Of a stretch of 64,000 nt of DNA, positions 4,926-61,549 are shown in pieces. Position 1 is the first letter of the stretch. Each line of letters starts with the position of its first letter. Source of the stretch: Eledone cirrhosa (Eukaryota). A model generated the notes under the pieces. It made no database searches. It was not told where the DNA came from and was given only the letters and a program-made list of their open reading frames with translations. The translations under genes and the position numbers were made by a program. Location of the stretch: positions 238,080,001 to 238,144,000 of the forward strand of contig OZ024741.1 in assembly GCA_964016885.1 (NCBI GenBank), written 5' to 3'.

Positions 4926-5300
4926 CTTCATTGTTTAATCCTTATCCTTCACTGTAGTAGCATGTAATGGATGATGTGTATCCTGCTGTAGTGTTCCAGT
5001 ATGATGGCTGCTACTGCTGTAGTTGTGTTATAGTGTAACTGCTGCTACTGTAGTGTCCCATAATAATTGCTTCACTGCTGTAGTGTTTCAGTGTAACTGC
5101 TGCTGCTGCTGCTATGGTGTTCCTGTGTAACTGCTGATATTGCTGTGTCCCTGTGTAACTGCTGGTGTGACAGTAGCTATATGTAGTGGGAGGAGGGATG
5201 TTAACTAGATGGTGTTGTGTGAGTTATATCCCTATATCTTCCACACACACAAAAGTGTGTATTATGAACAAAGAAAAAAGCTATCAGCCTCATTTTGAAT
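4926..5300 (-). other. Putative leader exon of a seventh protocadherin gene left of the window
   Basis: Ends in CAATGAAG|GTAAG (donor at 4925-4924); paralogous to five other leader blocks. 5' boundary estimated. Confidence 0.6.
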
Positions 5301-5400
5301 ATTGAAAGAAATATATAAAATCTTCCTTAACCAATAGGAAATTACTGCAATGTTGTCTGTGTAACAGAAACACAGGAAATAATAGAATCCATGTCAAACA
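5265..5400 (-). promoter_or_regulatory. Conserved putative promoter block (CCAAT plus TATA-like)
   Basis: CCAAT at 5331-5335, ATATATAAAA at 5311-5320; block retained in all six units even where neighbouring spacer DNA has diverged. Confidence 0.45.
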
Positions 5401-6104
5401 GAAATAGTTTGATAGTTTATGTTATAATACTAATTCAAGTTAAATTTAATGACAATAATCCAGAATTCTTTACTTTGCAGCTAATTATTTTAAAATTATA
5501 AACTATTTTTTATTATATTTTAATATTAAAATTAATTATTATAATTAATTACATATTTTAAGATATAGCTGCTTATAATTTATGTATTATCTCTTTTTAA
5601 CAGAAATGCCAAACTCCTAGCTTTTGATACAATTTACTCTAACTTGTAGTTAAATATTAACGTTGCTCTCCTATTTCTAAATGTTATAATGCAGTAAAGG
5701 AATTATATTATATTTCTTGAAATTTTTCTATATAGTCTTATATCTAAGTTAAACAATATTGTATAAAACATCCATTAAATGATTCACAATCTAAATAGTT
5801 TCATGATCAAAATAGGAAAATTATAAATATATTTAAAAAAATGAATGTTAAAATGGAAATTAAAAGATTTAATAAAAATAAACAAAACATATTTTAAACT
5901 ATAATAATATTATAGTGTACTATATTTATATTATTTAAGTGTCTGAGGTGTAAATTAGGGGACATAGTATATGACACTGCAGGTAAGACATTTTGTGTAA
6001 TGATGGGGAAGTAGTTATAGGTTTGATATTCTCATATCACTATAAAGTATTCTATAACGTTTGGTGTGTGAGAGAATCATTTAACAATAGTGATGGGACA
6101 TCTA

Positions 6105-6184
6105 CTATGTTGGCTGTAGATAGGTATCTTGTACTTGTTGTCCCTTTTGTATTGTGGCTGGAACTGTATTGTCATTGGTATATT
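6105..6184 (-). CDS. Pcdh: Protocadherin gene 1, terminal coding exon ((E)YTNDNTVPATIQKGQQVQDTYLQPT*)
   Basis: Pyrimidine tract ...tattttccag| acceptor; phase 1 matches the previous exon; TAG stop; conserved in six copies. Confidence 0.8.
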
Positions 6185-6261
6185 CTGGAAAATAGAAAAT
6201 ATAGAAATAGAAATTATATTTCAATATAACAACTCTGTAAAGATAAAAACATTGTTAAACA

Positions 6262-7393
6262 TAACATGGCCTAATCAAAAACCTTAAAGTTAACTTGTCT
6301 AAGACTAAAGTTCTAGTATGTAGAAAGGAAAATAGAGTACAGGTGCCCTCTGGGAAATGGCCATGCTCAGTGTAGGTAGAAATTCAGGAGTAGGTAGAAA
6401 TTCCATTCTATGCCCCAAATGCAAACTCTGGGTACATAAAAGATGTAGTGGGATCACAGGCAAACTATCTAAGACTGTAGATTTTATATGTGGCCGATGC
6501 TAAGGTGCAATAAGTAGCAAGTCCACAGGATACTAGCCTTTTCTACTGCCCAGATGGTTCTATAGAAATAGTAGACACTTTCCGTTACCTGGGTGACGAA
6601 ATCAGCAGTGGTGGAGGGTACTCTGAAGTACAGTAGCCAGAGTTAGAATGGGATGGAAAAAGTTCAGAGAGCTTATACCGCTGTTGGCCACAAAAGGTTT
6701 CTCTCTAAAAATGAAAGGCAGATTGTATGATGCCTGTATACGAACAGCAATGTTACATGGCAGTGAGACATGGGCATTGTGTGCAGAGGACCTGCGCAGA
6801 TTGGAAAGGAACGAAACATGCATGCTCCATTGGAGTGTAATAGTAATATACATGAACGGCAAAACATATACGAACTAAGTGAGAAATTAGGAATAAGAGG
6901 GATCAGATGCTGCTTACTTGAGAGAAGATTATGTTGGTATGGTCATGTGATGCGCATGAAAGACGACAGCTGTATAAAAAAATGCAAGGCGATCAAAATT
7001 GATGGAAGTTACGGAGTAGTTGACCCAGAAAAACCTAGGATGACATGATAAAATCTGACCTTGCACACTTACACCTCTCTAAGACAATGTTATTGGATCG
7101 AGATCTTTGGCGCCACACAGTAATACAGAACCCGCCATCCCTACGTGCAAAGTTAACCCACAGTCAGTAGGCCCTTCTTAACCAAATATACATCCCAGCC
7201 CATTACCCCAACTCCCACCAACACCGCCCCTTCTCTGTAAAGTCATGTTCGTACCATAACATCCAGTCCAAACTAAAGAGGTCATGTAGCAGTCACTACA
7301 AAATACAAGCGAGACATGGCCACTCGATCAATCTTGCCTCAAGTGGGACAATTCCTGTCTAACTCATGTTGGCGTTGAAGATAGATGTTAAAC

Positions 7394-7428
<35 letters not shown>
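6262..7428 (+). mobile_element. RTE-clade LINE 3' fragment in the last intron of gene 1
   Basis: KGRLYDACIRTAMLHGSETW and RRLCWYGHVMRM motifs, (GAT)n tail; this intron is 1311 nt against ~160 nt in genes 3-6. Confidence 0.85.
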
Positions 7429-7429
<1 letters not shown>

Positions 7430-7495
7430 AATATTACATATTATCTAACAGTAATAAAAGGAATTACATTTCTGTTATGTTTAGGTAAAGGTTAC

Positions 7496-7643
7496 CTGGT
7501 TGTGAAGGTATCTCTTCATATGGTTTAGTCTTGCCAATACTCTTGTAACCTTCTCTGCTTTTTTGTGATGTTAAGGTGTCACTGTTGTAGTTAGACATGC
7601 TGAGACTGGTGCGACCTTCATGACTATGGATTGAATCACATCT
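7496..7643 (-). CDS. Pcdh: Protocadherin gene 1, second coding exon (148 nt, RCDSIHSHEG...KPYEEIPSQP)
   Basis: ctaatccacag| acceptor, CCAG|GTAAC donor, phase 0 to phase 1, open frame, conserved in six copies. Confidence 0.85.
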
Positions 7644-8162
7644 CTGTGGATTAGAAAAGATGTCAGAAACATGATTTTAACTAGAGTAACTGTTTACATT
7701 TATTAGTTAAATTGATCTTTCTATGAAACAAGAAAGGAGTAATTTTATGCAATGTCATTAAACATCCACAAAATCAGTAGAAACTGCACATATTGAACAA
7801 ATAATATTAATATCGTAAACAATGCAAAAAAAAAAAAGAAACACTGATTTTCAATACAAACTGGAGACTGTGTTGAAAACCTTCCACCAAATGACAATAT
7901 TACTGTGTTCTATTAAATATGATGTAATATGCCATTTATTCATGTCTCAAATATATTAGGATACTTGTAGATTTATAGTAATGATTCTATAGGATTTCAG
8001 TGATGTTTTTATCCAAGAAATCTCAAAATATTGTAGTTTGTAATTTTAAAATGAAAACCAATACTCATCTTCTTTTTAAGAGTGAATAATAAAGCAACAA
8101 TAAATTATGAATAAAAATTGACAAAACAAATATAACATCTAACAATTAAATGTAATATTCAC

Positions 8163-10556
8163 CTGAGGGACTGGTGGAAGTCTCCTTTGTGTTGTTGAGA
8201 ATTTCCACTCATCTGGTAGCTGTTCCATCTCTGGATAAAACTGACTTTTAGATTTTATTGTCTGAAGATTTCTGTTAAATATTTCTTCTGCATTTCTCGT
8301 TATTGCCACAGGATTGTTGGTATGATACAGTAATTGTCTCATCTCAGTCTGAGACAGAAAGTTTGGTGGATTATCTGCTGTTGTAGGTGAGTTATTGGTG
8401 TGATTAATACATCTGAAAACACACAGTGTTATTGACACTACAATAGCCACAGATATTATTACAGCTGCTGCTACAATGATAATTACCCAAGTCATATTGA
8501 GGTTGTTACCAGTCTGTAAGTGGACAGCATTCAACATTGGAGATGTATCATTACTAACAAACAGTGTTAGTATGATAACAGTTGTTGCTGATTGAACTGG
8601 AGTACCACCATCTTTCACTATAAACTGTAGGTCATATGTTCCTGCATCATTTTGGTAAACTGTCCGAGAGAAAGATAAGACACCAGTGTGGGAGTTGACT
8701 GTAAACAGGTTTTTATCATTAGATCTCAGTATTCCATATGTGAGGAAAGCATTGTTTCCAGTGTCTTTGTCAGAGGCTTTCAGAATTGTGATGTCTTTTT
8801 TACTGTGTGGATGGTAGTGGACATCTAGATTGTAAGGGTCATTAATAGGAAAGGTAAAATAGGGAGCATTATCATTTTTATCTAGAATCTCAATAACAAT
8901 ATTGGCAGTGTCATTCAGAGAAGGTGTTCCATTATCTTTGACTAAAACCTGGAATTTATAGATGTCTTTTACTTCCCGATCTATTGATTGTGATGTAGAA
9001 ATAAATCCATATTTTGTAAGTTGGAAAGGAATGTTATCATTGTTGTTATCATTGATGATAGAATATGTAAGTTGACCTCCATCTCCAAGATCAGGGTCTG
9101 TAGCATTGATGAAGCCAATAGGGAAGTCAACTTTCTGGTTTTCATAGGTGAGGAATTGGAATGTATCTTTGGTAAAATGTGGCTGTACATCATTGACATC
9201 AGTTACTTTGACAGAGAAATACTTCTTAGTTTCTAGTTGAGGTGATCCCATGTCATGACATAAAATAGATACTTTATAGTGGTCGTTTATTTCTCTATCA
9301 AGATGTCCCTTAACCATCATTTTATATTCTTTAGAATCTATTTTGGCAAGTTTAAATTTATCATGTTTTAAGTCACAGCTAACCTCACCATTAGGTCCAA
9401 CATCAGTGTCAGTGACTATAACATAAGCTATAAAACTATCAATTTTACTTGCTTCTGAAACTCCTGTGGAACTTTCTGTTAAAGGTGATACAAAATCTAT
9501 ATTTATCACTGGAGCATTATTTTGGTTATTGATTACACGAATTTGAACTGCAGTTACTGAACTCAAAGGAGGTTTCCCTCCATCACGTGCTTCAATAAAT
9601 AATTTATAAAACTCAATCTTACTAAAGTGAAAATTATCATGTAAAAATATCTCTCCAGTTTTCTTATTCAATACAAAATATTTCTGGGAATTTCGAGATG
9701 TTTTATGGTTGAAATGATAAGAAATCTTTCCATTGTCTCCAGAATCTAGATCTGTAGCTTTTACTGTAATAATTGGTAAATGCCTTTGATGTGAATTATT
9801 TATAGATATGTTGTAGACTTTCTGTGAAAATACAGGTGTGTTATCATTAACATCTGTCACAGCTATGTGTACCTTGAGGGTAGCTGTTTGGGGAGGGTTC
9901 CCTCCATCTTTAGCTTCAAGTGTCAACATATATGAGTCTTTTATTTCCCTGTCTAATTTGCCTTCTAAAGATAATTCAGGTATGTAGACTCCATCATGTC
10001 GCCTTATGACAGACAGGGCAAATGGTTCTCTCTTACCTTTCTTGATCATGTACATAAGCTGAGAATTTTTTATTGAAATATCTTGATCAATGGCATTTGG
10101 AAGAGAGATTTTTGCTCCTTTTGTGTCTCTCTCAAAAAATTCAATTTTAACTTCATTGTCTGGAAATTCTGGTGGATGGTCATTGATGTCTTCTATTACT
10201 ATTTTTATTTTCAATATCTTCATAAATGTTTCTGCTTTCCTCACTGCTACTTTAACAATTCTGGAACATTCCTTGTTATATGTACACAGTGACTCAGCAT
10301 CCAGTGTCTGTGTAGTGTATAGTTTTCCTGTGTTGGTGACATTGAATAAGTGAGAACCACTTGACACTGTCCTTTGTAGTTGTGTAAATGTAATGAGAGT
10401 GTGTTGTTGATGTGTAAGAGAGTGTGTTAAGTTAGAATCAACAGCAATGTCTCCTATATAGGTGTGAGGACTGCCTTCTTCATTGAGATGGTAAGTAATG
10501 TCTATAGACAGTACAATGTTTATCAGTAGACAGAGTAGACCAATATATGTTGTCAT
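8163..10556 (-). CDS. Pcdh: Protocadherin gene 1, large coding exon (signal peptide, EC1-6, TM, juxtamembrane; 798 codons, ~873 aa spliced)
   Basis: Cadherin motifs DINDH, LDRE, DVNDN, DxDxG; EC1 C-x5-C (CTYNKEC); TM WVIIIVAAAVIISVAIVVSITLCVF; donor CAG|GTGAAT; acceptor ttttgtag 38 nt before ATG. Confidence 0.95.
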
Positions 10557-11599
10557 GTCTGGAATTCTTCATCACACTTTAGCAGTATCAATTTCTACAA
10601 AAGACATAAGAAATATTTAAAGTTGAAATATGAGTAAATCATCATGATCGTTATGGTTTTAACAATTTAATTGTTATTAGGAGGTACTGTCCTCCTGGAT
10701 GGGCCAGGGAAACTTACTTGTTACTAATGTTCCACTAGTCTATTCAAATTTTGTCTTAGTTTTTATAGTTGGATGCCTTCCCTAACATCAACTATTCTAC
10801 AGTGTATCCTGATAAAATGCTTTTAGCAACAATAGTAGCGAGGTTACCATGTCACTAACTAAAGAGTCCTGTCTAGCCTACATTATTTATTTGTGCCTAA
10901 CGTAGAAACAATTATTTACTTTCAATAGTCAACCCTTTTTCAGAGTTTATTTATTGCATTTTATAATAGCACCAGTATTGAAGAGGTTGTCAAGTCCTCA
11001 ACAAGACTAAAGAGTCCTCCCAATTTTACATTGTCTCCATTTGCTCATCAGTTACTTTACATGACAAGGTACCTCTTCACTCCATGTGGTTTCCATCATT
11101 TCAAGGCAAATGTAACAGAGATGGTGTTTGAAGTGTGTATGTTTGTGTGTAAGGGTAGAAGATGATAACCTAGAGTTGAATGTAGATAAGCTAGAGTGTG
11201 AAAGTGACAGTAATGGGTAGGAGGTTGAATAAGAAAACAGTATGAGCAATGCCAATAGGAATGAGTCATGATATGAAAGAGTGAATAATGGGTTTCACAG
11301 AGAACAAAGTGACAGATTTCAGTCATATGGTTCTTATGGAATTAGGAGAAGTTAAGCTCTGAATTTTTGCAAATAATGGGTGAAGTAGGAGAGGAAAGCA
11401 GTTCTATGAAGAAGGTGGCAATAGAAAATTATATGAATATGTTCATATCTGTTGCCAGGTATGGGTGATTAAGACAATAGTAGCAACAGCAGTAGCAGTA
11501 GTAATAATGAGGAATAGGAAACTAGTAGAGAACAGGGGCTGAAGAGATCTCTGGTAACCCACAGAAAAGTGGCAGTGATAGTTTGTCCAGTGAAAGAAA

Positions 11600-13690
11600 T
11601 AGAGATGATTTTTCAGAGTAGACCAAATGAGATTTTACCAAGAAATAAATGGAGTGTGTACAGATGAAGTGATGATACCAGATAGCAATGAAAGTCAAAA
11701 GTTTGAAGACACATTTGGAGTAAAGAGAAAGTACACAAGAAAAACGCTAAATGGTTACAAGAACTGTAATAAACAACAGTTTGCCCACAACAGAACTAGA
11801 TAATTCACTAAGGGATATGAAGGAAGTCAGAAAATTAGCAATTGGAAGTCTCCAGGACCAGACAGAATTCAAGGCTACTGGATCAAAAGATTTAGTGAAT
11901 GCCATGTACAAATAGCTGAACAATTCAACACATTGTTAAATGCTGGCCAAGTAATACTAGAGTGGCTGTCAAAGAGGAGGACAGTTCTGTCCTTGAAAGA
12001 CATCAGAAAAGAAACAACTACACACTGATATTATGCTTACTACATATGTGGAAGTTATTCACTGGAATAATCGCTGAGTCAATGTAGAAGTATCCTGAAG
12101 AAAATGGAGTTTTATCAGACAAGGTACCAAGGACCAATATTTGATATCAAAACAATATTTAGTGATTACAAGAGGAAGAAAACCAACTTGGCCATGTCGT
12201 GAATTGATCACCGGAAAGCCTATAATATGATCCCACATTCTAGGACCATGGAATGTGTGAACCTATTTGGTTTATTAGAAAAAGTATGGAGAAGCAGAAA
12301 ACAAAACTGACAGCATGTTAAAGAAGCTTAGAGTGTGTTTGGATTCAAAGGTTGCCAACAAAAGGTTAACCATTTAAGGACAACCTCAAGCTTTATGATA
12401 AGGATGAATCCCAGGTCAGTTCCTTCGTTGTTATGGTGTATATGTTTAGTGCTGACGTCAGAATGGAGTTTGGATTGAAAAAGTGAGGTGTGTTAGGTTT
12501 GAACAGTAACAAAATTAAACACATGGAGAGGTTGGTGTTGCCATTGGGGAGGTCATGAAGCAAATAGAAGAGGAAATTATACACACTTAGGGATACTGGA
12601 AATGGACAAAGTAATGGAGGAGGAAATGAAAGAAAAAGTTAAGGAGGAATACTTGTGCAGACTTGTCCTCATCTTGAAATTGAATAGACAGAATAGATAG
12701 AAGCTATCAACCCAGAGGCAGTCTCAGCCTTTAGGTATGGAACAGCGATGGTACGTGGGCAGTAGAAACACTAAACAGCTTAGATCAAAAGACATTGACT
12801 TGGCATGGAGTATTTCATCCAAAGAGTGATACAAACAGATTATATGTACCAAGAAAAAGACGAGGAAGAGATCTGATTGAGTTCGAAGACAGCATAAGAG
12901 CAAGCAGAAGAAAACAACATGGCAGGTTACCGAAAAATGCCACAGAACTGCTAGTGGTGGAAGTAAGAAGGTCAGGGTTGTGCAAAACTGAAGATTGAAA
13001 AGATAAAACACAGTACAAGTATTTGAAGATGGATAAAACTGAAAATAATTTGTGGGTAGGAGTATCAATAATAGTTGGTGCCTTAGAAACTGTAAGTAGA
13101 GATCTTAAAAAGAACATTGAACAAAGAGGGGTTGCAATGTGTGCAGAGCATTTGCAGAAAACAGCACTGCTTGGAACAGCTTGAATACTCTGGATGGTGC
13201 TGAAAAAATAAGGGCTGAAAAAATAAGAGCTGTTCACTGGCAGTAAACAGCTGACATTGTAATACATTTCCAGCATTAGAAGCTGAGTGAAGAAAACAAA
13301 AATAAAAATACCAATACAAAGCAATAGAGAACAGGAATGAGCATGTGGCTTGGAAGGTAATGCAGGAGGATGGGATTATGAATGTTTGACTGGCAGAGTA
13401 ACTGAGCATTGAAAGTGGAGATGACAAGACTGTTTGAAATGAGAGTATAATGTGAAAGTGATACCAGTTGTGATTGGGCATTAGGGTCAATCCCATTGAA
13501 ACTCCAAGTCTTCTTAAAACAGTTGGGAATACCATGCAAGATTGGTGTCATACAAAAATCGGCCTTGCCAGACACTATGCACATTTTAAGGAAAGCATTA
13601 TGTCTGAAGCCCTTGCTGGGATTTGATAGCTGACTAAATACTCCAGTGCTTTTTCCATCTACACTGCAAGACAAAGTAATAATAATGATA
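11600..13690 (+). mobile_element. Decayed R4/Dong-like non-LTR relic with two C-terminal remnants
   Basis: KSPGPDRIQGYWIKRF, TNRLYVPRKRRGRDL, IIVGAL...LQKTALLGTA*IL (~13070-13200) and VIPVVIG...IQKSALPDTMHILRKAL (~13460-13600). Confidence 0.7.
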
Positions 13691-15941
13691 GTGATGGATA
13701 ATGGGGTTGGGTAGGGTGGGCTATTTGATGCTTCCCTCCTTCATTACTCAGTCAACATGATGTAAAGTGTATTATGGTGGTATTATAGAAGAGAGTGGTA
13801 ACTAAATCCTAACCTTCCCTCTTAAAGCAAGATTTCAATAGTATGAGTTCCCGGTCAGAACCATCCTATGCCATCTTTGTCCTATGTCTTCCTTGGGCTC
13901 TCTCTTCCACAGATTTTGCTAACTTCAAGCACTTGGTACTTTTGCATACAACTGTCTTTCTCCATGTATGTACCATTGTAACTGCCTCTCTTGTACACTA
14001 ACTCTGATTACTCTCATATTCAATTTTCTCTCGGCTACATGTGTTCTGTCATTCACACACACTAATATTACACACCCAGTAGAGTATACATGTTTCATTT
14101 CTTTCTAGCCATCACAAATCTGCATTCAAGCACCATGTCCCACTACCATGAAGCATGGCAGTTCAAATAAAAGCCTTATACAATGTATAAAAATGTGAAG
14201 CACTTTATTGCCAGCAGAGGTAACAAATCCTGATTTTATTCCCCTCTGTAGTCACTTAGGCTAAGCTTTCAGTACACCCCACCCCACTGTTAATGAGGTT
14301 ACCTAAACAGAAGCAGCTATCAACTACTTCTAGTGAATCTTCTGAATATCTGAGGGAGCTTATTTCATAAAGAATGAGTAATGTTGTTGTTGACTTCTGT
14401 ACATCTATCACATACAGCAATATATTCATCCACAAGGTTCTCTATAACCCACCTGAGCCTAATGTAGGCTGTGAATATTAGATGGTACAGATTGTTTGGG
14501 TTAACAATGGCCTCACTGTCATCAATACACAGCTTACCAACATGACTAAGACAATATCAAATGTAGTTGAACCAACATGAGGAAGGACTTTTCCTTCAAC
14601 AACACCATCTCACATATGTTTGGATTATATTGGAACTAAACAGAGGTGTATGGGTCAAAATAGTAAGTTCATCATGATTCAGCACACTTCACAATAATAA
14701 GTACACATGAATGAAAGTTACACAGCATCTTGGCCTCCATGTATAGACCACATAAATGCCGCTGTTTTGTATCACAGAGCAAGGTTTTTCCGAAAAGGGT
14801 TAAGGTGATGTAATTCATTCATCTAGGATATGAGGTGTTGTATTACATTCTTCAGTGTCAACCATGATGCTTTGGTCATAAACCTAGGTGTTGCCACATG
14901 CAATTCAGGAGAGTAAACTGATTAAATACCAGCCATTAATGGTCAAATTCCATTTCACACTAGCTACTGTTAAGACCTCCAATGTTCTTGGTTCCTAGAC
15001 TACCGGCTTCTTATGCTAAATTAGAATGAGGGGATCACCATCGAAGAAGGATCCCTTTTGCAGTGGAATGGCTGATAAAATGGATACCAGTGGCTGGTTT
15101 GTTATGCCAAGGCTTTTGACATCTGATATGTAGCTATGATATACTGTTCAACCAACATTTTCTTTTCTGATTGAAAAATTAAATAAATTTCATAATGTTT
15201 AAAAAAAATGTGTAAATGTTATTTATTTCTAAATACACTTTATTAGACTCATGTGAATAATTTTTAATATATCATCTCTTCTGATGTGATAATGGTTACA
15301 TGCCTATGGCTAGATGTGGTAGCTGAATGATACAGGAGGAAAACAAACTGTACTAAAACATGGACATTTCCTACTTGCTTAAATGCTGGATGAAATATAC
15401 TGAAATTGTATTAAACTGCATTTATTGTTGTCAGAGTTAACATATTTTAACAATACACGACAATATCATTAGTTTCTATCTCACAATAAATATAGTAAGA
15501 TATATAAACTACATTATATTCATGAACATTTTTATAATGCTAAATATTCTGTTAGATATCATTAAAGCCAGAGAAAGATTAAGATATAATTACTGAATTA
15601 TTATGACAATAGCTATAAACTATATTAACATGCATTACAAACATTCAGTCTTATTGGCTATCAAACAACATATTCTAATAGTTAAATATATACACCTAGT
15701 TTGAACTGTCACATCAATATTGTATGTAAAATATATAGTAGCAATATATACAGTTTAATATTATAGTGTGTTTTATATGACTCTGATATTACAATATGTA
15801 GTCTATCTAGAGGTAATTGTACTACTACTACTACAGCAGCAGTTGTTGTTGTTAATGGTGGAAGTGATGGCAAGATCCCTCTATTTCACATGAGCCCATT
15901 TCTTGTAGGTGTATATGTGTGTCTATAAATATATATATATA

Positions 15942-16041
15942 CAGGGTATCCCCAAAAATGTTTATACACTTTGATTACCTGTAGAGGCATTATTTATTAG
16001 AATGCTGTTGAAGTGAGTATACATTTTTGGGGGACACCTTG
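15942..16041. mobile_element. 100-bp Tc1/mariner-type MITE (duplicate of 4047-4146)
   Basis: Same TIRs and TA flanks. Confidence 0.75.
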
Positions 16042-16063
16042 TATATATATTTATATATATATA

Positions 16064-16470
16064 TCTGAGTCTCTCTCCACGTATTGACCTGCTGATAGGT
16101 GGTATATTGCCATAGAGATCCTTATTTGTTGGGTGTTCCCTCCAAGAAACGTTTAAAGCAGCGCGGAGCATACGTGTGTATGCCCCGTCTAGCTTTTTCT
16201 CCAGTTTCGACGTTAGCGTCAATACGTGGACAGAGACTCAGATTTGCTGGCCACTGTTGGCGCAGCAAGGAAGAAATAGCAGGTGATGTGTTGTTATGGA
16301 GTCCATCTTATGGAGCAAGAAACGCTGGTCGTCCCAAGAAGACATACGTCAAGCAACTTGAGGACGATACTGGATGCACTGCGGAAGAACTGGCAAACGC
16401 TATGAGAGACAGAGATGGATGGAGGAAACGTGTCGTAGAAAGCCGAGCAAGCTGGACCTGATGATGGTGA
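16064..16470 (+). mobile_element. 5'-inverted RTE-like LINE 3' end (duplicate of 4169-4575)
   Basis: ORF-track pieces 15962..16222(-) and 16099..16461(+) are consecutive parts of one LINE C-terminus. Confidence 0.8.
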
Positions 16471-16801
16471 TATATATATATATATATATATCATAATTAT
16501 CATTTAATGGCTGTTTTCTCATACATATATATATAGCACACATTTTTAATTTTGTGCTTAGCCTGTTTCACTATAAACATATCATCATTCTCATCACCTT
16601 TTAGTGATAAGGCTGATGTGTTTATAATGAAACACAGGCTAAAGACAATATAAATGTTATGATTATGAACAAGACGGAGACAAAGGGAAAAAGAGAGAGA
16701 TAGGTATATAGATAGACAGATAAATAGAGAGATAGACAGACAGATAGATAGAGAGGGAGAGAGATAGATAGAGAGAGAGAGATAGAGCAAGAGAGACTTA
16801 C

Positions 16802-17175
16802 CTTCATTGTTTAATCCTTATCCTTCACTGTAGTAACATGTAATGGATGATGTGTATCCTGCTGTAGTGTTCCAGTATGACAGCTGCTACTGCTGTAGTT
16901 GTGTTATAGTGTAACTGCTGCTACTGTAGTGTCCCATAATAATTGCTTCACTGCTGTAGTGTTTCAGTGTAACTGCTGCTGCTGCTATGGTGTTCCTGTG
17001 TAACTGCTGATATTGCTGTGTCCCTGTGTAACTGCTGGTGTGACTGTAGCTATATGTAGTGGGAGGAGGGATGTTAACTAGATGGTGTTGTGTGAGTTAT
17101 ATCCCTATATCTTCCACACACACAAAAGTGTGTATTATGAACAAAGAAAAAAGCTATCAGCCTCATTTTGAATAT
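16802..17175 (-). other. Putative leader exon of protocadherin gene 1
   Basis: CAATGAAG|GTAAG donor; would splice over 6207 nt to the acceptor at 10595. 5' end estimated. Confidence 0.65.
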
Positions 17176-17270
17176 TGAAAGAAATATATAAAATCTTCCT
17201 TAACCAATAGGAAATTACTGCAATGTTGTCTGTGTAACAGAAACACAGGAAATAATAGAATCCATGTCAA
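17138..17270 (-). promoter_or_regulatory. Conserved putative promoter block, gene 1
   Basis: CCAAT at 17204-17208 within the conserved block. Confidence 0.45.
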
Positions 17271-49008: not shown

Positions 49009-49133
49009 TTATTCATTAAATTCTACAAGTGGAGAGATGCTATACTGAAAAATCAGAGAACAGCAGATGTAAAATGATGATGAGAACGATGATGTTCAGA
49101 ACAATAACAGAAATATTTAAAAATAATATTTAC

Positions 49134-51530: not shown

Positions 51531-53239
51531 GTCTGGAATTCTTCATTAAACTTTAGCAGTAGAAATTTCTACAAAAGATAGAAATATTTAAATAAAACAT
51601 CTTATACTTAAAATAACAAATGTGTAAATGCTTTTTCTGCTTTTAATATACCTTCATTAGAACCAACTAAACAACTGAAAATATATCATTTGACTAACTA
51701 TAATAAAGTATATAGTTTATATATATTTCCTTGGAATATATATTATATGCCAAAGATTCAAGATAATGTATATATTACTATAAGTGTCAGCTGTAAATTT
51801 AATTTTTTCTCTCAATTGTTTATATGGAAACTTTTGTTTATTATTATAAGAAAACTAATTTTGAATGTTCTACTTTAAATTTTTATGCAGGTATGTAGCT
51901 TAGTGGTTACAGCATTAGATTCGCAATCATGAAGTTTTGAGTTCGATTGCTGGACAGGCAATGAGTTACGTCTTTGAGCAAACACTTATTTCACCTTGCT
52001 CTTTCTGCAATGGAAAGAAACATTGTTTCCTAAGTCTGTTTTGAAGAATTCCACGTCACACAATAAGCAAATGAGGTCTGGAATCTTGTTGATTGATCGA
52101 TTTTAAATTTACCATTGACAGGAAAGAAACAGTTATAACTTTTCAAGTTACAATGAGGTATTTTTAGACGGAAATATTTAGCATCTATTTGTAACAGATT
52201 AATTAAATAATACACCAAATGTCTAGAATACAATTCAAATGATACAATATGATAATGTTTAGTATTGAATAACAAATAAATATATATCGTCCAGTGTGGA
52301 ATATAAAAATCTAATCAGAGTTTTCAGGTAAGTTATGTTTCTTAGAAAGCTAATAAAACCAGCTTCAAATACACATTGTCTAATATAGTCAGAGTACCAC
52401 AAGATTTTGAAGAGGAGTATTGTGCATTAATTCAATCCACAGAACCTGACTGTAAATTGCTTGAGTTAATTAGAACACCCCTGTGTGGTTGCTACTTTGT
52501 TAATAACAAAAGTTAAATATCACTCAGATCAAACCATAGAATCTTGAAAATAAAAGATACACAAGTTGTATATTTGCTATACCTAAGAAAAAGTTGGGAT
52601 GGTCATGATTAAAAGGTTTTGTCAATATATCTGCTCAATTAAGCCTGTTTGTTGTTATTTAAAGACATCATTCTTTAGTCACTGGGCACTGTATTGGAAG
52701 AATCGGTAGAGTGTCTGACAGCATACTTTGTGGCATATAGCCCTTAACGTTCTGAGTTCCAATTTGTATTTTATGCTTACGGGTTTGATAAAATAAAGTA
52801 CCAGTAATGCACTGGGGTTGTTCAATCGTCTTGCCCCTTCTCTGTTACTAATGAAGATGAAGTAGTTAGTGTTAAGCCTGAGTTTGATTCCCCCAGTGTG
52901 TACTCTAGCCAACAAGAGTACTATCTACAGTTTCTTTATCTGCTAGAAACAGCAGCTACGTTTCTCTTATATCACAACCTATCATATATTCTAAGAACAT
53001 ACATATTAAAATAAATGATCATGACTGGAATGCGTTTAACATGGGCTTAAAAAAGACTGCAGCTCTGAGTAGGAGATCTAGAGAAAAGTGTTTAGTGTGG
53101 GGTTGTGCTGGGGTAAGAAACTGTAATGATGAGAACTTTAGGAGGGGATAATGCTCTAAGTAAAGATGGTAAAGAGTATGGTAATCCAAAGAAAATAAAA
53201 CCATTACAGTAATAATAATAATAATAATGATTTCTTAAA

Positions 53240-53460
53240 TAGGCACAAGGCCAGCAATTATAATAATAATTGTTTCTACTTTTGGCACAAGGCCAGCAAT
53301 TACCCAGTGTATTACTGGTACTTTATTTTATCGACACTGTAAGGATGAAAGGCAAAGTTAACCTCGGTGAGATTTGAACTCAGACCATAAAGGGCTGTAA
53401 CTCTTTGCTGCAAAGCATGGCGTCCGACCTTCTACCAATACTGCCAATCCATCGCCCTCA
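53240..53460 (-). mobile_element. tRNA-derived SINE in a (TAA)n tract
   Basis: Reverse complement of the SINE core and B-box; absent from the paralogous site near 44410. Confidence 0.75.
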
Positions 53461-55456
53461 TAATAATAATAATAATGATTTCTTATATGGGCAGAAGGCA
53501 AATGAAACCATTACAGTAGTAGTAGTAACATGTCTGCCTGTATGGTATGTCTGTAAGACTGAGTAGTACTCCAATGTAGGATGCACTTAAGGTTTATATA
53601 GTTCCTTTTAAAGTAATATAGTGTAGCATTTGGAATATAATTTTGGTAATACTATATGCAGTTGGAGAGAGAGAGAGAGAGATGGCGTTGTTCATATCTT
53701 GATAGAATGAGGTACAGACATGTTTTCTTGAAAAGTGTAGAGATTGTATCTTTGTATTGTAAAACAAGACTAGTGTCTCTTTTCCTCACTGTAGCATGTG
53801 TTGGAGATTTCTAAGTTGTATGTGACCTGCTTATCTAACAACTTAAGAAAGTGTAAATATGCCGTACAGATCTCCAGATACAGTACATCAAGAACAGTTA
53901 GAGATAAAACTACATGTGGTTATTGCATATGTATTTTTGCAGTAAATATTACACACATTAGCAGTTAATTGAAGGAGAATATGAGCCAATAATTCCACTT
54001 GGCTTTAGTTTGTACAGAAAGATTAGATGGCCTGGTTCATAAAATACTAGAAAACCAGTTGAGCAATCATTAGTTCATACTATGTCACAAACACATCATG
54101 TCTCTATGATCAAGGTACTTCATTCCCTATAGACAGGTACACCTAACAATGTAGCTAGCACAGGAGATGTAACTCACCCCTATAGGTAGAGGTTGTATCG
54201 TGGAATTTATGAGTAATTTATTACCTTTGAACGTCTCTTGCCAAGAGAGCTATGTAATCTTAAAGAAACTGGAGATAAGGACCAACACAATGGATACTTG
54301 CTATTACAAAAAGGTTTAGCTCTCATTAAATTAACTATGTAAATGTGTAGGGAAAACTGAGCTTAGACAAAATAAAAAAAGAGACGTTTGATGTTGAAGC
54401 TGATCAATATTCATTTAATAGAGCTATGATTGTGATGGGAAGTTATTATAGGGAATAATGAAATTACAGAATAAAACAATTCCTTAGAATGAGAGTAAAT
54501 CACAGTAAACCTATTATATTGTGTTCTAATGAAATTTAATTAAAGGTGTTTCGGCTTACAAAACTAAAGATTGACAGCCTAGATGGAGGATATTTTATAG
54601 AATTATTCAACTAATATCTTCATGTAATACTTTATATTAAACTCAACTAACATACAGAGGCATTAATAACAGTGGCACAATAGTTTACAAATTATGTGGA
54701 AATATTTTACAATATTATATTTTCTAGAGACAAAAAATGTTGAAAATATAATTAACTGTAATAAAAATAATTTTGATGACAATATCATCATCAATTTATA
54801 TCTAACAATAAACATAGTAAGATACCAAGATTAAATTCTATTTATCAACATTTAAATAAAAAACCTTCTGAATATCTTATTTACATAGAAATATAAAATG
54901 GATATTTAACAAGATATATATAGGGATAGTAATAATCTCGTAGACTTCATTAAAGCCATAGAAAGATTAAGATTTAAATATTCAATTATTACGGCAACAC
55001 AGATATAAATTATAATGGCATAAATTATTCATAAACAGTTATATAGTCTATCAATAAATATATATCCAACAGTTGAATAAATATATAGATGTAATATATA
55101 TATCTTAATAATATCGTGTTTGATTCTAATATTCAAATATGTAATCTATTTAGTGGTAATTATATGACAACTACTGCTGTTGTTTTTAATGGTGGAAAAG
55201 ATAGCTAGAGCCCTCTTGTCTCCAGTTCCTACAGGGCATACAGATATTAAAATGTTTATGATGATGATGAAGATATGTATCGAGAGAGATGGATAGATAG
55301 ATAGATATACAAGATGGTAGACATTTTAGCTATTATGCTTACTCTGTAATTCAGTATAATACATTTATATTTATATTATAAATATATTTGCTGTAATGAC
55401 TATGAAAAGGAAAGAAAAAGACATAGAGAGAGGAAGAGAAAGAGAGGGAGTCTTAC

Positions 55457-55750
55457 CTTCATTGTTTAATCCTTTACTGTAGTTGTGTATTATGGATGTT
55501 GTGTATCCTGCTGTAGTGTTCCAGTGTGACTGCTGCTACTGTGTTCAAGCATTACTGCTGCTGCTGTGGTGTTCCAGTGTAACAGCTGCTTCTGTAGAAG
55601 TGTAACTGCTGATGTGACAGTGGTTGTATGTAGTGGGAGGAGAGTTGTTAACCAGATGGTGTTGGGGTGGTAGTTACAACATGATGTCTTCCACACACAC
55701 AATAGTGTGTATGATGAACAAAGAAAAAATCTATCAGCCTCACTTTGAAT
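55457..55750 (-). other. Putative leader exon of protocadherin gene 5
   Basis: CAATGAAG|GTAAG donor; 3888-nt intron to the acceptor at 51569; CCAAT at 55781-55785. Confidence 0.65.
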
Positions 55751-56639
55751 ATTGAAAGAAATATATAAAATCTCTCTCATCCAATAGGAAATTACTGTAA
55801 TGTTATCAGTGTTACACAAACACATGAAATAATAGAATTCACATGTAAATGAAGCTACTTCATAGTATATATATAACAGCACAACATTAGAAGTTTACTA
55901 AGAATAATGAAATGATTTTCATTATTGATTTGGTATTAATTATTTAAAAATTCTTTACATTTTTACTTATTATTACTTATTTTGAATTTATGTAACAAAC
56001 TCTTAATGTTTTACAAGAAATATGTTAGAATATCATAATTTTGGGTAAGTATATTTAAGATTTATCCCTCCTGATGTAAATATTGGATATATAAAAGAAA
56101 GTCATTAATAAAATATTTCGCCATTAATTATGTCAATGTAATTACTTCTAATTTATATTTAACCCTTTAGCATTTAGCTTACTTTATATTTACAATTGTA
56201 TTTTCACGGTAAACACCTTACCTCACATAATATCGAATTTATGAGATTGATATTATCTGTTTTGAGAACAATACTTTAACATAAGGATGAGCAGCTGGTT
56301 ACAGCCAGTTTGCTAAAGGGTTAAATAATTAGGTCTTTTTCATAACTAACTTTCTAAACATTGTAATATATGAGAATTGAGTGGTATCAATAAAGTAAGG
56401 ATATTAACCCTAAAATAGGAGGTAAATTAGAAGAATTAATAAAGAAATATATTTGACCTATGGTAATATAACAGTACTTATAATATTTATGTATTAAAAT
56501 GTAAAATTAGGGAATATAAATGTTGACATTGGTGATCCTTTAAGAGTGAAGCATAGAGGTGATATATTTTTATATCAATATAAAGTATTCTATAACATTT
56601 GGTGTGTGAGAGAATCATTTAATAGTGATGGGACATCTA

Positions 56640-56719
56640 CTACGTTGGCTGTAGATAGGTATCTTGTACTTGTTGTCCCTTTTGTATTGTGACTGGAACT
56701 GGATTGTCATTGGTATATT
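56640..56719 (-). CDS. Pcdh: Protocadherin gene 6, terminal coding exon
   Basis: ttttccag| acceptor, (E)YTNDNPVPVTIQKGQQVQDTYLQPT*. Confidence 0.8.
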
Positions 56720-56878
56720 CTGGAAAATATAAAATATAGAAACAGAAATTATATTTCAATATAACAACTCTGTAAATATATAAACATTGATGTTATATTT
56801 TAATAAACATAACATTAAATATTGTGTTACAGTAATAAAGAGAATTACATTTATATGTTATGATTAGATAAAAGTTAC

Positions 56879-57026
56879 CTGGTTGTGCAGATATCTCTTC
56901 ATATGGTTTAGTCTTGCCAATACTCTTGTAACCTTCTCTGCTTTTTTGTGATGTTAAGGTGTCACTGTTGTAGTTAGACATGCTGAGACTGGTGCGACCT
57001 TCATGACTATGGATTGAATCACATCT
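56879..57026 (-). CDS. Pcdh: Protocadherin gene 6, second coding exon
   Basis: 148 nt, AG/GT bounded; lies inside ORF-track 56793..57068. Confidence 0.85.
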
Positions 57027-57261
57027 CTGTGGATTATAAAAGTCAGTAGAGTGAATCACAATATTCAATAGAAAAAGGTTTATATTTGTTATATAAAATA
57101 TTTCACGTACAACATAAGAGAGAAATTTTATAATAAATATTATTTATTAAATTCTACAAGTGGAGAGATGCTGCACTGAAATCTCACAGAACAGATGTAA
57201 AATGATGATGAGAATGACGATGATCAGATCAATAACAGAAATATTAAAAAATAATATTTAC

Positions 57262-59652
57262 CTGTGGAACTGGTGGAAGTCTCCTTTGTGTTGTTGAGAA
57301 TTTCCACTCATCTGGTAACTGTTCCATCTCTGGATAAAACTGACTTTTAGATTTTATTGTCTGAAGATTTCTGTTAAATATCTCTTCTGCATTTCTAGTT
57401 ATTGCAACAGGATTGTTAGTCTGATACAGTAATTGTCTCATCTCAGTCTGAGACAGAAAGTTTGAATTATCTGCTGTTGTAGGTGAGTTATTGGTGTGAT
57501 TAATACATCTGAAAACACACAGTGTTATTGACACTACAATAGCCACAGATATTATTACAGCTGCTGCTACAATGATAATTACCCAAGTCATATTGAGATT
57601 GTCACCAGTCTGTAAGTGGACAGCATTCAACATTGGAGATGTATCATTACTAACAAATAGTGTTAGTATGATAACACTTGTTGCTGATTGAACTGGACTA
57701 CCACCATCTTTCACTATAAACTGTAGGTCATATGTTCCTGCATCATTTTGGTAAACTGTCCGAGAGAAAGATAAGACACCAGTGTGGGAGTTGACTGTAA
57801 ACAGGTTTTTATCATTAGATCTCAGTATTCCATATGTGAGGAAAGCATTGTTTCCAGTGTCTTTGTCAGAGGCTTTCAGAATTGTGATGTCTTTCTTACT
57901 GTGTGGATGGTAGTGGACATCTAGATTGTAAGGGTCATTAATAGGAAAGGTAAAATAGGGAGCATTATCATTTTTATCTAGAATCTCAATAACAATATTG
58001 GCAGTGTCATTCAGAGAAGGTGTTCCATTATCTTTGACTAAAACCTGGAATTTATAGATGTCTTTCACTTCCCGATCTATTGATTGTGATGTAGAAATAA
58101 ATCCATATTTTGTAAGTTGGAAAGGAATGTTATCATTGTTGTTATCATTGATGATAGAATATGTAAGTTGACCTCCATCTTCAAGATCAGGGTCTGTAGC
58201 ATTGATGAAGCCAATAGGAAAGTCAACTTTCTGGTTTTCATAGGTGAGGAATTGGAATGTATCTTTGGTAAAATGTGGCTGTACATCATTTACATCAGTT
58301 ACTTTGACAGAGAAATATTTCTTAGTTTCTAGATGAGGTGATCCCATATCATGACATACAATGGATACTTTATAGTGATCTATAATTTCTCTATCAAGAT
58401 GTCCCTTAACAATCATTTTATATTCTTTAGAATCTATTTTGGCAAGTTTAAATTTATCATGTTTTAAGTCACAGCTAACCTCACCATTAGGTCCAACATC
58501 AGTGTCAGTGACCATAACATAAGCTATAAAACTATCAATTTTACTTGCTTCTGAAACTCCTGTGGAACTTTCTGTTAAAGGAGATACAAAATCTATATTT
58601 ATCACTGGAGCATTATTCTGGTTATTAATTATGTGAATTTGAACTGTGGTTACAGAACTAAGTTGAGGATTCCCTCCATCTCTGGCTTCAATAAATAATT
58701 TGTAAGATTTCATCTTACTAAAGTGAAAATTATCATGTAAAAATATCTCTCCAGTTTTCTTATCTAATACAAAATATTTTTGGGCATTTCGAGATGTTTT
58801 ATGGTTGAAATGATAAGAAATCTTTCTATTGTTTCCAGAATCTAGATCTGTGGCTTTTAAAGTAAGAATTGGTAAATGTCTTTGATGTGAATTATTTATA
58901 GATATGTTGTAGACTTTCTGTGAAAATACAGGTGTGTTATCATTAACATCTGTCACAGTTATGTGTACCTTGAGGGTAGCTGTTTGGGGAGGGTTACCTT
59001 TATCTTTAGCTTCAAGTGTCAACATATAGGAATCTTGTAATTCCCTGTCTAATTTCTCTTCTAAAGTTAATTCAGGTATGAAAACGCCATCATGTCGCCT
59101 TGTGATGGAGAGAGAGAATGGTTCTCTCTTACTTTTTCTAATAGTGTATGTAATTTGTGAATTTCTCATTGAAATGTCTTGATCAATGGCATTTGGAAGA
59201 GGAATTGTAGTCCCTTTACTATCTCTCTCTAGAAAATTAACCGTAACTTCATTCCTTGGAAATTCTGGTGGATGGTCATTGATGTCTTCTATAATTATTT
59301 TTATCTTCAATACCATCATAAATGTTTCTGCTTTCCTCACTGCTACTTTAACAATTCTGGAACATTCCTTGTTATATGTACACAGTGACTCAGCATCCAG
59401 TGTCTGTGTGGTGTATAGTTTTCCTGTGTTGGTGACATTGAATAAGTGAGAACCACTTGATACTGTCCTTTGTAGTTGTGTAAATGTAATGAGAGTGTGT
59501 TGTTGATGTGTAAGAGAGTGTGTTAAGTTAGAATCAACAGCAATGTCTCCTATATATGTGTAAAGACTGTCTTCTTCATTGACATGGTATGTAATGTCTA
59601 TAGACAGTACAATGTTTATCAGTAGACAGAGTAGACCAATATATGTTGTCAT
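57262..59652 (-). CDS. Pcdh: Protocadherin gene 6, large coding exon (797 codons, ~872 aa spliced); its leader exon is expected just beyond the right edge
   Basis: Six cadherin repeats plus TM; donor CAG|GTAAAT; acceptor 38 nt before ATG. Confidence 0.95.
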
Positions 59653-61549
59653 GTCTGGAATTCTTCATCACACTTTAGCTGTAGAAAATTCTACAAAAGA
59701 TATCAGACATGTATACAGATGAAGGAAAATTAAATAAAACAGCTGATAACTATAATAATAATTATGTAAATTCTACTTCTACTCCTTTTATACCTTCATG
59801 AGAACCAACTAAATTTAGAATATATCATTTGACAAGCTAGAATATAATATAGAGGTAGAGTTATTTCACTGGAATAAATATTACATTGTCAATGATATGA
59901 GATAATGTGCTTACTGTAAACCTTAAAAAACCCAGAGAAACCATCATTGAGATCAAAACTCATATTAGTTCAGTTAAATCATCATATGTCTAAGCTGTAA
60001 ATTTAATTTTTTCTTTCAATTACTTATATAAAAACTTTTAGTTGATTACAAGAACCATATTTTGAATGCTTTATTTTACATTTTCGTGAAGGCTTGTGGT
60101 TAGAGAATTGGATTCACTTATTGTGCAGTTGCAAGCTGTATTCCTGAATCAAGGGAATTGTTATGTCTTTGAGCAAGACACTTTATTTTTATGTTGCTCT
60201 TTTTACAAAGAGTTGAGACTGGTATATAGTATCAGTAATGGAAAGAAACATTGTTTCCTAAGTCTGATTTGATGAATTCCACACCACACAATAAGTAAAT
60301 GAGGTCTGGAATCTTGTTCATTGATCGATTTTAAATTTACCATTGACAGGAAATAAACAGTTGTAACTTTTCAAGTTACAATGAGGTATATTTAGACGGA
60401 AATATTTAGCATTTATTTGTAACAGATTAGTTAAATAACACACCAAATGTCTGGAATACAATTCAAATGATACAATATGATAATGTTTAGTATTGAATAA
60501 CAAATATATATCGTCCTGTGTGGAATACAAAAATACAATCAAAGTTTTCAGGTAAGTTATGTTTCTTAGAAAGCTAATGAAACCAGCTTCAAATACACAT
60601 TGTCTAATATAGTCCGAGTACCACAAGATTTTGAAGAGGAGTATTGTGTATTAATTCAATCCCTAGAACTTGACTGTTAATTGCTTGAGTTAATTAGAAC
60701 ACCCCTGTGTGGTTGCTACTTTGTAAATAACAAAGGACAAATATCACTCAGATCAAACCATAGAATCTTGAAAATAGAAGATACACTGGTTATTGGCGTT
60801 GTATATTTGCTATACCTAAGAAAAGGTTGGGATGGTCATGACTTGAAAGGTTTTGTCTACAGATCTACTCACTTAAGCCTGATTTGTTGTTATTTAAAGA
60901 CATCATTCTTTAATCACAAGGCAATGTATTGGAAGTATTTGTAGAGTGTCTGACAGCATACTTTGTGGCATATAGTTACAACCCTTAACGTTCTGAGTTC
61001 AAATTCCACTGAGGTTAGTTTTGTCTTTCAAGCTTACGGGTTTGATAAAATAAAGTACCAGTAATGCACTGGGGTTGATTTAATCGTCTTGCCCCTTCTC
61101 TGAAAATAGCATTATTTTGTCACAGGTGGAGTAGCAATGCCTATAATCATTGTAAGCTCTTTGTGACTAATGAAGATGAAGTAGTTAATGTTAAGCCTGG
61201 GTTTGATTCCCCCAGTGTGTACTCTAGCCAACAAGAGTACTATCTACAGTTTCTTTATCTGCTAGAAACAGCAGCTACGTTTCTCTTATATCACAGCCTA
61301 CCATTTATTCTAAGAACATACATATTAAAATAAATGATCATGACTGGAATGCGTTTAACCTGGGCTTAAAAAAGACTGCAGCTCCGAGTAGGAGATCTAG
61401 AGAAAAGTGTTTAGTGTGAGGTTGTGCTGGGGTAAGAAACTGTAATGATGAGAACTTTAGGAGGGGATAATGCTCTAGGTAAAGACGGTAAAGAGTATGG
61501 TAATCCAAAGAAAATGAAACCTTTACAGTAATAATAATAAAAATGATTT

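What the first reader, a model, noticed from the sequence alone, without database searches (positions are those of the whole stretch)
4926..59690. Clustered protocadherin array of self-contained genes: variable EC2-EC3 on a near-constant chassis, with no shared constant exons
Seen: six head-to-tail genes, each with its own two tail exons; substitutions concentrate in EC2-EC3 and early EC4, while EC1 and especially EC5-EC6, TM and tail are almost identical. Established: vertebrate clustered protocadherins encode homophilic specificity largely in EC2-EC3 and alpha/gamma isoforms share constant exons; cephalopods expanded protocadherins independently. Inference: this array reaches the same variable-recognition/constant-signalling design by homogenising separate gene copies, i.e. 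a convergent neuronal identity code.
Basis: partly seen in the sequence, partly recalled or inferred. Interest (0 to 1): 0.8.

Follow-up and report, generated by a model that had tools for sequence, protein, structure and literature searches.

The report
Octopus protocadherin array with homogenised chassis
Six complete octopus cell-adhesion genes, part of a run of about fifty, have near-identical membrane-side parts while two outer domains stay old and different, which likely lets each protein act as a distinct cell tag on a common base; a predicted hinge also sets them apart from their vertebrate counterparts.

Summary
Observation confirmed. The window holds six intact protocadherin genes, each with its own two tail exons, inside an octopod array of about 50 genes. 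Complete genes without shared exons, and gene conversion, are already published for cephalopods (PMC9068888). Added here: the pattern is one of age, not of faster protein change. Silent divergence is about tenfold higher in EC2-3 than in EC5-6 in four sub-arrays, while dN/dS is similar and positive selection is inconsistent. Across three octopod lineages EC5-6 groups by species and EC2-3 by sub-array, so EC5-6 is repeatedly overwritten by conversion and EC2-3 largely escapes, as reported for vertebrates (PMC4978886). Two further features: EC3's calcium motifs (DRE, DxNDN) are absent in 247 of 247 coleoid records but present in 15 of 15 vertebrate units, predicting an EC3-4 hinge; and each gene has its own non-coding first exon with a short upstream ORF. 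Isoform-specific homophilic binding and stochastic expression, the 'identity code', remain untested. A known kind of array with a testable, apparently unreported domain-level and structural twist.

The parts
6105..17264 (-). Gene G1 (873 aa): non-coding exon 0 ~17264-16802; exon 1 10594-8163 (ATG 10556); exon 2 7643-7496; exon 3 coding 6184-6105
   Evidence: 5' end of exon 0 inferred from the end of the conserved block
17979..28566 (-). Gene G2 (875 aa): exon 0 ~28566-28132; exon 1 22589-20152 (ATG 22551); exon 2 19614-19467; exon 3 coding 18058-17979
29320..37988 (-). Gene G3 (875 aa): exon 0 ~37988-37525; exon 1 32675-30241 (ATG 32640); exon 2 29705-29558; exon 3 coding 29399-29320
   Evidence: a contig of run X5 matches 37525-37957 and leaves the window exactly at the donor
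38652..46782 (-). Gene G4 (875 aa): exon 0 ~46782-46398; exon 1 41962-39525 (ATG 41924); exon 2 39038-38891; exon 3 coding 38731-38652
   Evidence: both tail introns are skipped in contigs laid here, which may come from paralogs or relatives
47585..55841 (-). Gene G5 (874 aa): exon 0 ~55841-55457; exon 1 51568-49134 (ATG 51530); exon 2 47971-47824; exon 3 coding 47664-47585
56640..59690 (-). Gene G6 (872 aa): exon 1 59690-57262 (ATG 59652); exon 2 57026-56879; exon 3 coding 56719-56640; its exon-0 donor lies just outside the window (G000:C2:238144308)
4926..5391 (-). Non-coding exon 0 of the next gene, whose large exon lies outside the window (near G000:C2:238078390); 4926 is its donor
21502..22161 (-). 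EC2-EC3 of G2, example of the old, variable region (same region in G1 9516-10175, G3 31591-32250, G4 40875-41534, G5 50481-51140, G6 58612-59271)
20539..21171 (-). EC5-EC6 of G2, example of the homogenised region (G1 8553-9185, G3 30628-31260, G4 39912-40544, G5 49521-50150, G6 57649-58281)
21495..21525 (-). EC3-EC4 junction of G2: NNQNN in place of DxNDN; EC3 also lacks DRE and xE; predicted hinge binding one calcium
   Evidence: analogy to PCDH15 EC5-6 (PMC7547225 passages)

Best explanation
This is a sub-array of complete octopod protocadherin genes in which EC5-6, the membrane region and the tail exons are near-identical, likely through repeated DNA-level gene conversion, while EC2-3 stays old and distinct, likely because selection removes conversions that would erase isoform-specific cell-cell binding. 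Shown: gene structure, domain-wise silent divergence, opposite groupings of EC2-3 and EC5-6 across species, loss of EC3 calcium motifs. Inferred (about 0.9): conversion as the cause. Inferred (about 0.55): EC2-3 carries binding specificity, and the uniform EC5-6 and tail allow promiscuous same-cell pairing and one common signal, as in vertebrate clustered protocadherins. Predicted: the EC3-4 junction binds one calcium and flexes, so contact would centre on EC2:EC3 and depend less on a rigid EC1:EC4 contact. Each gene likely has its own promoter and non-coding first exon, so diversity would come from which genes a cell switches on, not from splicing.
For: dS in sub-array A1 (26 genes): EC2 0.52, EC3 0.40, EC1 0.19, EC5 0.041, EC6 0.047; the same shape in A2 (20), B (16) and C (25), which are only ~55% identical to A1 for B and C. 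The 48 A1 pairs most divergent in EC2-3 (39% of bases differ) differ by 1.5% in EC5-6, the same as the 48 closest pairs; rho between the two distances is about 0. Crossed test on 115 proteins from G000, Argonauta and Octopus sinensis/vulgaris: the EC5-6 tree needs 2 species changes (the minimum) and 13 sub-array changes; the EC2-3 tree needs 12 and 1. Fourfold sites A1 vs A2: EC2-3 0.55, EC5-6 0.038; EC5-6 against B/C 0.32-0.37, so silent sites there can change. Near-fixed species differences: 15-34 in EC5-tail, 0-1 in EC2-3. Recombination test p=0.003. The short intron 2 is also homogeneous (7.9% mismatch, 18 genes), pointing to DNA-level tracts. The peak is bounded by low dS on both sides, so it is not a 3' gradient. 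The same dS shape and EC2-3 specificity are reported for vertebrates (PMC4978886 passages). The EC1-4 model (pLDDT 86.7) matches protocadherin EC1-4 structures.
Against: No binding or expression data for these proteins. No consistent positive selection: M2a reaches only p=0.009 and 0.027 in A1 EC2 and EC3, nothing in EC2-3 of A2, B or C, and the two lowest p values of 28 tests fall in constant regions (A2 EC5, C tail), so the test is noisy under recombination. Within A1 alone the EC2-3 tree still groups mostly by species (4 changes, minimum 2): EC2-3 turns over too and isoforms are not one-to-one orthologs. 6 of 325 A1 pairs exceed 93% identity in EC2-3 and may share specificity; the window's six are closer to each other (EC2 79%, EC3 85%) than mouse alpha isoforms (69%, 59%; Table 1 of PMC4978886). 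The degenerate EC3-4 linker may mean the vertebrate binding mode does not carry over. Single-cell data show octopus PCDHs that are ubiquitous or cell-type enriched, about 21 per neuron (PMC9712504 passages), which does not show stochastic choice. GC at fourfold sites is higher in EC5-6 than EC2-3 in 3 of 4 sub-arrays only.
Confidence: 0.6

Rival explanations
1. Conversion is real but EC2-3 escaped by a self-reinforcing divergence barrier: once it drifted, it became too different to convert. The genes are largely redundant adhesion molecules kept for dosage or cell-type regulation, with no isoform code.
For: dN/dS is below 1 and similar across domains; variable positions correlate only moderately between sub-arrays (rho 0.29-0.55); pseudogenes and very recent duplicates show birth and death.
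Against: A random barrier should fall in different places, yet EC2-3 is the peak in all four sub-arrays, in Argonauta and Octopus and in vertebrates. EC2-3 remains under purifying selection and 26 of 27 A1 copies are intact.
Confidence: 0.25
2. EC2-3 is driven apart by positive selection, for heterophilic partners or for foreign ligands, on a frame held by purifying selection.
For: NG86 omega is higher in A1 EC2-3 (0.34-0.38) than EC5-6 (0.15-0.20); three A1 EC2-3 sites reach posterior above 0.9.
Against: Silent sites carry the same tenfold contrast; no signal in EC2-3 of A2, B or C; neither A1 value survives correction for 28 tests.
Confidence: 0.1
3. The copies are very recent duplicates or assembly artefacts, and the constant part simply reflects strong purifying selection.
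For: One 14.8 kb stretch is duplicated at 98.6% identity.
Against: No two A1 large exons are identical, intron 1 runs from 226 to 2986 nt and upstream DNA aligns in 11% of pairs; no N in the region; the same two sub-arrays exist in Octopus and Argonauta; purifying selection cannot lower dS tenfold.
Confidence: 0.03
4. Some large exons splice to a shared tail as in vertebrates, or homogenisation is templated by spliced RNA.
For: A2 genes first showed no match to the A1 tail, and an orphan tail lies downstream of them; conservation follows exons, including the non-coding one.
Against: A2, B and C genes have their own, different tail exons; the orphan tail has a remnant of its own large exon; all 26 A1 genes keep both tail introns and intron 2 is itself homogenised.
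Confidence: 0.02

Closest known systems
Coleoid clustered protocadherin arrays (Albertin et al. 2022, PMC9068888; Styfhals 2019, PMC6339937; gold-ringed octopus genome, PMC9795677)
   Same: Head-to-tail multi-exon genes in sub-arrays, full gene duplication without shared final exons, gene conversion proposed; orthologous sub-array in O. sinensis, O. vulgaris and Argonauta hians at 80-87% identity.
   Different: The passages read give no domain-level dS, no cross-species domain trees, no EC3-4 linker loss and no leader exon or uORF. Albertin 2015, Wang and Ragsdale 2017 and the main supplement of PMC9068888 could not be read and may contain some of this.
Vertebrate clustered Pcdh alpha and gamma
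   Same: Six EC plus TM on one exon, small tail exons, one promoter per isoform, dS highest in EC2-3 and lowest in EC5-6 (PMC4978886).
   Different: Independent origin; tails are separate copies, not shared exons; canonical three-calcium junctions in vertebrate structures (PMC5106212) against a degenerate EC3-4 here; no arrayed CTCF-like motif found.
Mammalian Pcdh beta cluster
   Same: Each member is an independent gene with no constant exons (PMC7811963 passages).
   Different: Beta genes are single coding exons with short tails; these genes have two tail exons, ~160-aa tails and a non-coding first exon.
PCDH15 EC5-6 partial calcium-free linker (PMC7547225)
   Same: Modified xE, no DRE, replaced DxNDN, intact DxD and xDx on the next domain; there it binds one calcium at site 3 and is flexible.
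   Different: Unrelated protein and position; only the motif pattern is shared, and flexibility here is predicted.

Membership tests
Coleoid clustered protocadherins | Six EC repeats with protocadherin-type EC1, TM and tail; ectodomain on one exon | tested here: met
   PF08266 plus five PF00028 stretches in the two genes scanned; exon structure; fold matches
Coleoid clustered protocadherins | Head-to-tail sub-arrays of complete multi-exon genes | tested here: met
Coleoid clustered protocadherins | Closest relatives are octopod PCDHs | tested here: met
   119 of the 120 listed hits are named Octopus or Argonauta, one is unnamed
Coleoid clustered protocadherins | Neural expression | tested here: inconclusive
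   Spliced contigs exist in runs X5, X12, X14, but run kind and tissue are not on record and paralogs are not resolved
Vertebrate alpha/gamma clustered Pcdh | Variable exons spliced to shared constant exons | tested here: not met
   own tail exons per gene
Vertebrate alpha/gamma clustered Pcdh | Conversion spares EC2-3 and homogenises EC5-6 | tested here: met
   against PMC4978886
Vertebrate alpha/gamma clustered Pcdh | Canonical calcium motifs at every EC1-4 junction | tested here: not met
   EC3 DRE and DxNDN in 0 of 247 coleoid records and 15 of 15 vertebrate units
Vertebrate alpha/gamma clustered Pcdh | CTCF/CSE element at each promoter | tested here: inconclusive
   four recalled CTCF-like patterns gave 0-2 hits each in 944 kb holding about 90 genes; a crude test
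Vertebrate alpha/gamma clustered Pcdh | Strict homophilic antiparallel EC1-4 binding and EC5-6 cis dimers | not testable with these tools
Vertebrate alpha/gamma clustered Pcdh | Stochastic single-neuron isoform choice | not testable with these tools
   needs paralog-resolved single-cell long reads

The most novel reading that the evidence does not exclude
Coleoids built a second protocadherin identity code with different hardware: gene conversion does the job of shared constant exons, selection shields EC2-3 from it, and a clade-wide loss of the EC3-4 calcium clamp uncouples a short EC2:EC3 recognition module from a uniform stalk, giving a binding geometry unlike any solved protocadherin dimer. 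Published dates for 'recent bursts' of octopus PCDHs would then partly measure conversion, not duplication.
Probability: 0.3. Interest if true: 0.8.

Novelty: new member of a known kind. Interest (0 to 1): 0.5.

Why it matters
Whether cephalopod protocadherins form a recognition code is open; PMC6339937 states that nothing is known of their adhesion specificity. These genes are natural chimeras: pairs from 43% to 99% identical in EC2-3 sit on an almost constant frame, so specificity thresholds can be tested without engineering. Independent arrival at the vertebrate pattern (EC2-3 spared, EC5-6 converted) in four sub-arrays suggests a shared functional constraint. The missing EC3-4 calcium motifs give a sharp structural prediction. 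Whole-gene distances used to date expansions at 8-14 Ma (PMC9795677) would be biased young by conversion.

Tried and rejected
Shared-constant-exon idea for the A2 block: rejected. Positive selection as the main cause: not supported (own M0/M1a/M2a code with branch lengths scaled from a nucleotide tree, recombination not modelled). GC-biased conversion signature: GC3 was higher in EC1 and EC5-6 than EC2-3 in all four sub-arrays but GC4 failed in B, so weak. CTCF-like motifs: no array. Homodimer prediction: tool not available, nothing folded, so no verdict. Contig look-up tool: closed, so squid or cuttlefish arrays were not examined at DNA level. Representative search was swamped by giant cadherins and served only for vertebrate controls. 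Atlas search gave generic cadherin clusters. Run search: no RNA holder listed on record. The exon 0 to exon 1 joint was not among the joints displayed (26 hidden); support is indirect. EC1 identities for Octopus are spoiled by truncated gene models and were not used. Three candidate transposon fragments had no Pfam hit. Papers not held: Albertin 2015, Noonan 2004, Rubinstein 2015, Wang and Ragsdale 2017. Earlier findings of the scan: none.
Full report
OBSERVATION. Six long minus-strand frames encode cadherin-repeat proteins; the two scanned in Pfam carry a protocadherin-type first domain and five further repeats. Each has a large exon ending in phase 0, a 148-nt exon and an 80-nt terminal coding exon, with canonical splice ends and open 872-875 aa products. 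Contigs of public runs skip intron 2 (X5, X12, X14) and intron 1 (X12, X14) at exactly these places, and one X12 contig runs through all three exons. These contigs differ from the window by some letters, so they support the exon model for the family, not expression of each copy. Domain identities and the non-uniformity test are in the observation check.

SURROUNDINGS. The window is G000:C2:238080001-238144000. The tail exon has 28 matches within 260 kb. I read 584 kb around it and parts of two further arrays. Sub-array A1 has 27 large-exon copies, 26 intact; A2 follows with 20 intact genes in the part read; 16 genes of array B and 25 of array C were sampled. A2 first showed no match to the A1 tail, which raised a vertebrate-like shared tail. 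Searching with relatives' tails showed that A2, B and C genes have their own tail exons. Relatives of A1 and A2 are present in Octopus sinensis, O. vulgaris and Argonauta hians. The copies are not artefacts: none is identical, introns differ widely in length, and upstream DNA mostly does not align.

WHAT MAKES THE PATTERN. Silent divergence (NG86, bootstrap over codons) in A1 is 0.52 [0.43-0.64] in EC2 and 0.40 in EC3, against 0.041 [0.021-0.065] in EC5 and 0.047 in EC6; EC1 is 0.19 and EC4 0.10-0.18. A2, B and C show the same peak (EC2/EC3 0.34/0.48, 0.49/0.32, 0.66/0.57; EC5/EC6 0.035-0.065). Protein-level selection cannot produce this. Pair distances in EC2-3 and EC5-6 are uncorrelated, and the most divergent EC2-3 pairs are as close in EC5-6 as the least divergent (1.5% both). 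The clearest test is crossed. A1 and A2 predate the three lineages compared (EC2-3 identity 46-49% between sub-arrays, 66-74% between species within one), yet EC5-6 is 96-98% identical between sub-arrays within a species and 88-95% between species. On 115 proteins (two flanking G000 genes, their two orthologs and two O. bimaculoides rows left out) the EC5-6 tree changes species 2 times and sub-array 13 times; the EC2-3 tree 12 and 1. This is concerted evolution limited to part of the gene. The short intron 2 is homogenised too and no A1 gene has lost a tail intron, which favours DNA-level conversion. Against a simple story: within A1 the EC2-3 tree is still mostly species-grouped (4 changes), although one older lineage crosses species and 40-54 polymorphic columns are shared between species. 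EC2-3 is slower to homogenise, not immune.

SELECTION. M0 omega is 0.13-0.31 in EC2-3 and 0.10-0.54 in other domains. M2a beats M1a at p<0.05 in 7 of 28 domain tests: two in EC2-3 (both A1), three in EC4 and two in constant regions; only A2 EC5 survives correction. I read these as weak and partly recombination noise. That selection keeps EC2-3 distinct is an inference from the fixed position of the peak in four sub-arrays, two other genera and vertebrates.

STRUCTURE. An AlphaFold model of G2 EC1-4 (95 sequences, pLDDT 86.7, pTM 0.54) matches vertebrate protocadherin EC1-4 structures, TM up to 0.86; it says nothing reliable about inter-domain angles. EC3 lacks the calcium motifs of the EC3-4 junction. 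DRE-type and DxND motifs occur in 0 of 247 records (of 264 given; those aligning over the region; redundant, mostly octopod, two named cuttlefish, many unnamed), while the other DRE, DxND, DxD and xD motifs tested occur in 233-247 of 247; a loose xE test passes in 71. All 87 array genes of G000 lack DxNDN there, as do 18 of 20 dispersed G000 protocadherins; two distant ones on other contigs keep it. 15 of 15 lungfish, manta and coelacanth units keep it. Vertebrate clustered structures have three ions at each junction (PMC5106212 passages); the same motif pattern in PCDH15 EC5-6 binds one ion and flexes (PMC7547225 passages). A hinge is therefore predicted just where the variable zone ends. Variable residues favour EC2 A-B and D-E and EC3 C-D, E-F and F-G regions (strand letters are my reading of the model); that these face a partner is recalled from vertebrate work, not tested.

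LEADER EXON. A ~400-nt block is conserved in about 27 units, ends in a donor and lies 0.5-10 kb upstream of each A1 start codon. Joined to the acceptor 34-38 nt before the ATG, it yields a 14-15 codon uORF whose stop overlaps the main ATG in 25 of 26 intact A1 genes; in A2 it is mostly absent or a start-stop. Support for the join is indirect: an X5 contig leaves the window at the donor with 96 letters to spare, and contigs of equal depth cover both sides in X5 and X14. The copies are related, so this is not 25 independent cases.

MECHANISM. Most likely: tandem duplication makes complete genes; conversion keeps EC5-6, TM, tail and leader alike, so all isoforms would traffic, pair in cis and signal alike; conversions that overwrite EC2-3 are likely lost because they merge specificities; cells would differ by which promoters fire. 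The first step is shown by the sequence, the second strongly inferred, the rest by analogy.

WHAT IS KNOWN. PMC9068888 (passages; its one held supplement had no match) states full gene duplication without shared final exons and suggests conversion. PMC6339937 (parts 1-2 of 5 and a supplement search) notes very similar clustered sequences and unknown specificity. PMC4978886 (passages) gives the vertebrate dS pattern, citing Noonan 2004, which I could not read. PMC9712504, PMC9795677, PMC10084454 and PMC7811963 were seen as passages. Searches for a cephalopod domain-level or calcium-linker analysis listed none by title or abstract start. The library lacks Albertin 2015 and Wang and Ragsdale 2017 and their supplements, so absence from print is not established.

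VERDICT. A real, correctly described feature of a known kind of array. The added value is the demonstration of domain-limited conversion, the predicted EC3-4 hinge and a ready test set for specificity. Interest 0.5.

Noticed in passing
window 4926-5391, 16802-17264, 28132-28566, 37525-37988, 46398-46782, 55457-55841 (-): Conserved non-coding first exon with a CAG-rich minisatellite; spliced, it gives a 14-15 codon uORF whose stop overlaps the main ATG in 25 of 26 intact A1 genes.
   Followed up: partly
G000:C2:238155057-238156815: Broken A1 copy lacking about 176 codons across EC4-EC5, with a frame change.
   Followed up: partly
G000:C2:238297446-238299188: Orphan pair of tail exons with only a 47-codon remnant of its large exon.
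   Followed up: partly
G000:C2:238445229-238447600: A2 copy split into two frames in EC4.
   Followed up: no
G000:C2:238057492-238072202 vs 238080015-238094791: Very recent 14.8 kb duplication at 98.6% identity that includes G1; G1 and its twin are 99% identical in EC2-3.
   Followed up: partly
window 6255-7430 and 18136-19400: Intron 2 of G1 and G2 is 1.3-1.4 kb against 158-159 nt in the other four, through a shared insertion; it looks like a decayed mobile element (my impression, no Pfam hit).
   Followed up: partly
window 4204-4563, 16099-16458, 33600-34124: Short frames resembling retrotransposon remnants in the first intron (recalled resemblance; the two scanned had no Pfam hit).
   Followed up: partly
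G000:C2:239.1-240.9, 251-253, 331-339 Mb; C7:2-9 Mb: Many more protocadherin genes and sub-arrays, on two large contigs rather than one.
   Followed up: partly
L091 (G000:C6) and L092 (G000:C4): Two unlinked protocadherins keep a canonical EC3-end motif and a DRE in EC1; candidates for the ancestral type.
   Followed up: partly
P0127, P0137, P0151, P0155, P0159, P0166, P0168: Public gene models of 1,500-5,800 aa that fuse several neighbouring protocadherin genes; likely annotation errors that distort family counts.
   Followed up: no
G000:C2:238029549 and 238327731: The genes flanking A1 have their own tail types and single orthologs in Argonauta (P0019) and O. sinensis (P0036), reminiscent of vertebrate C-type members.
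   Followed up: partly
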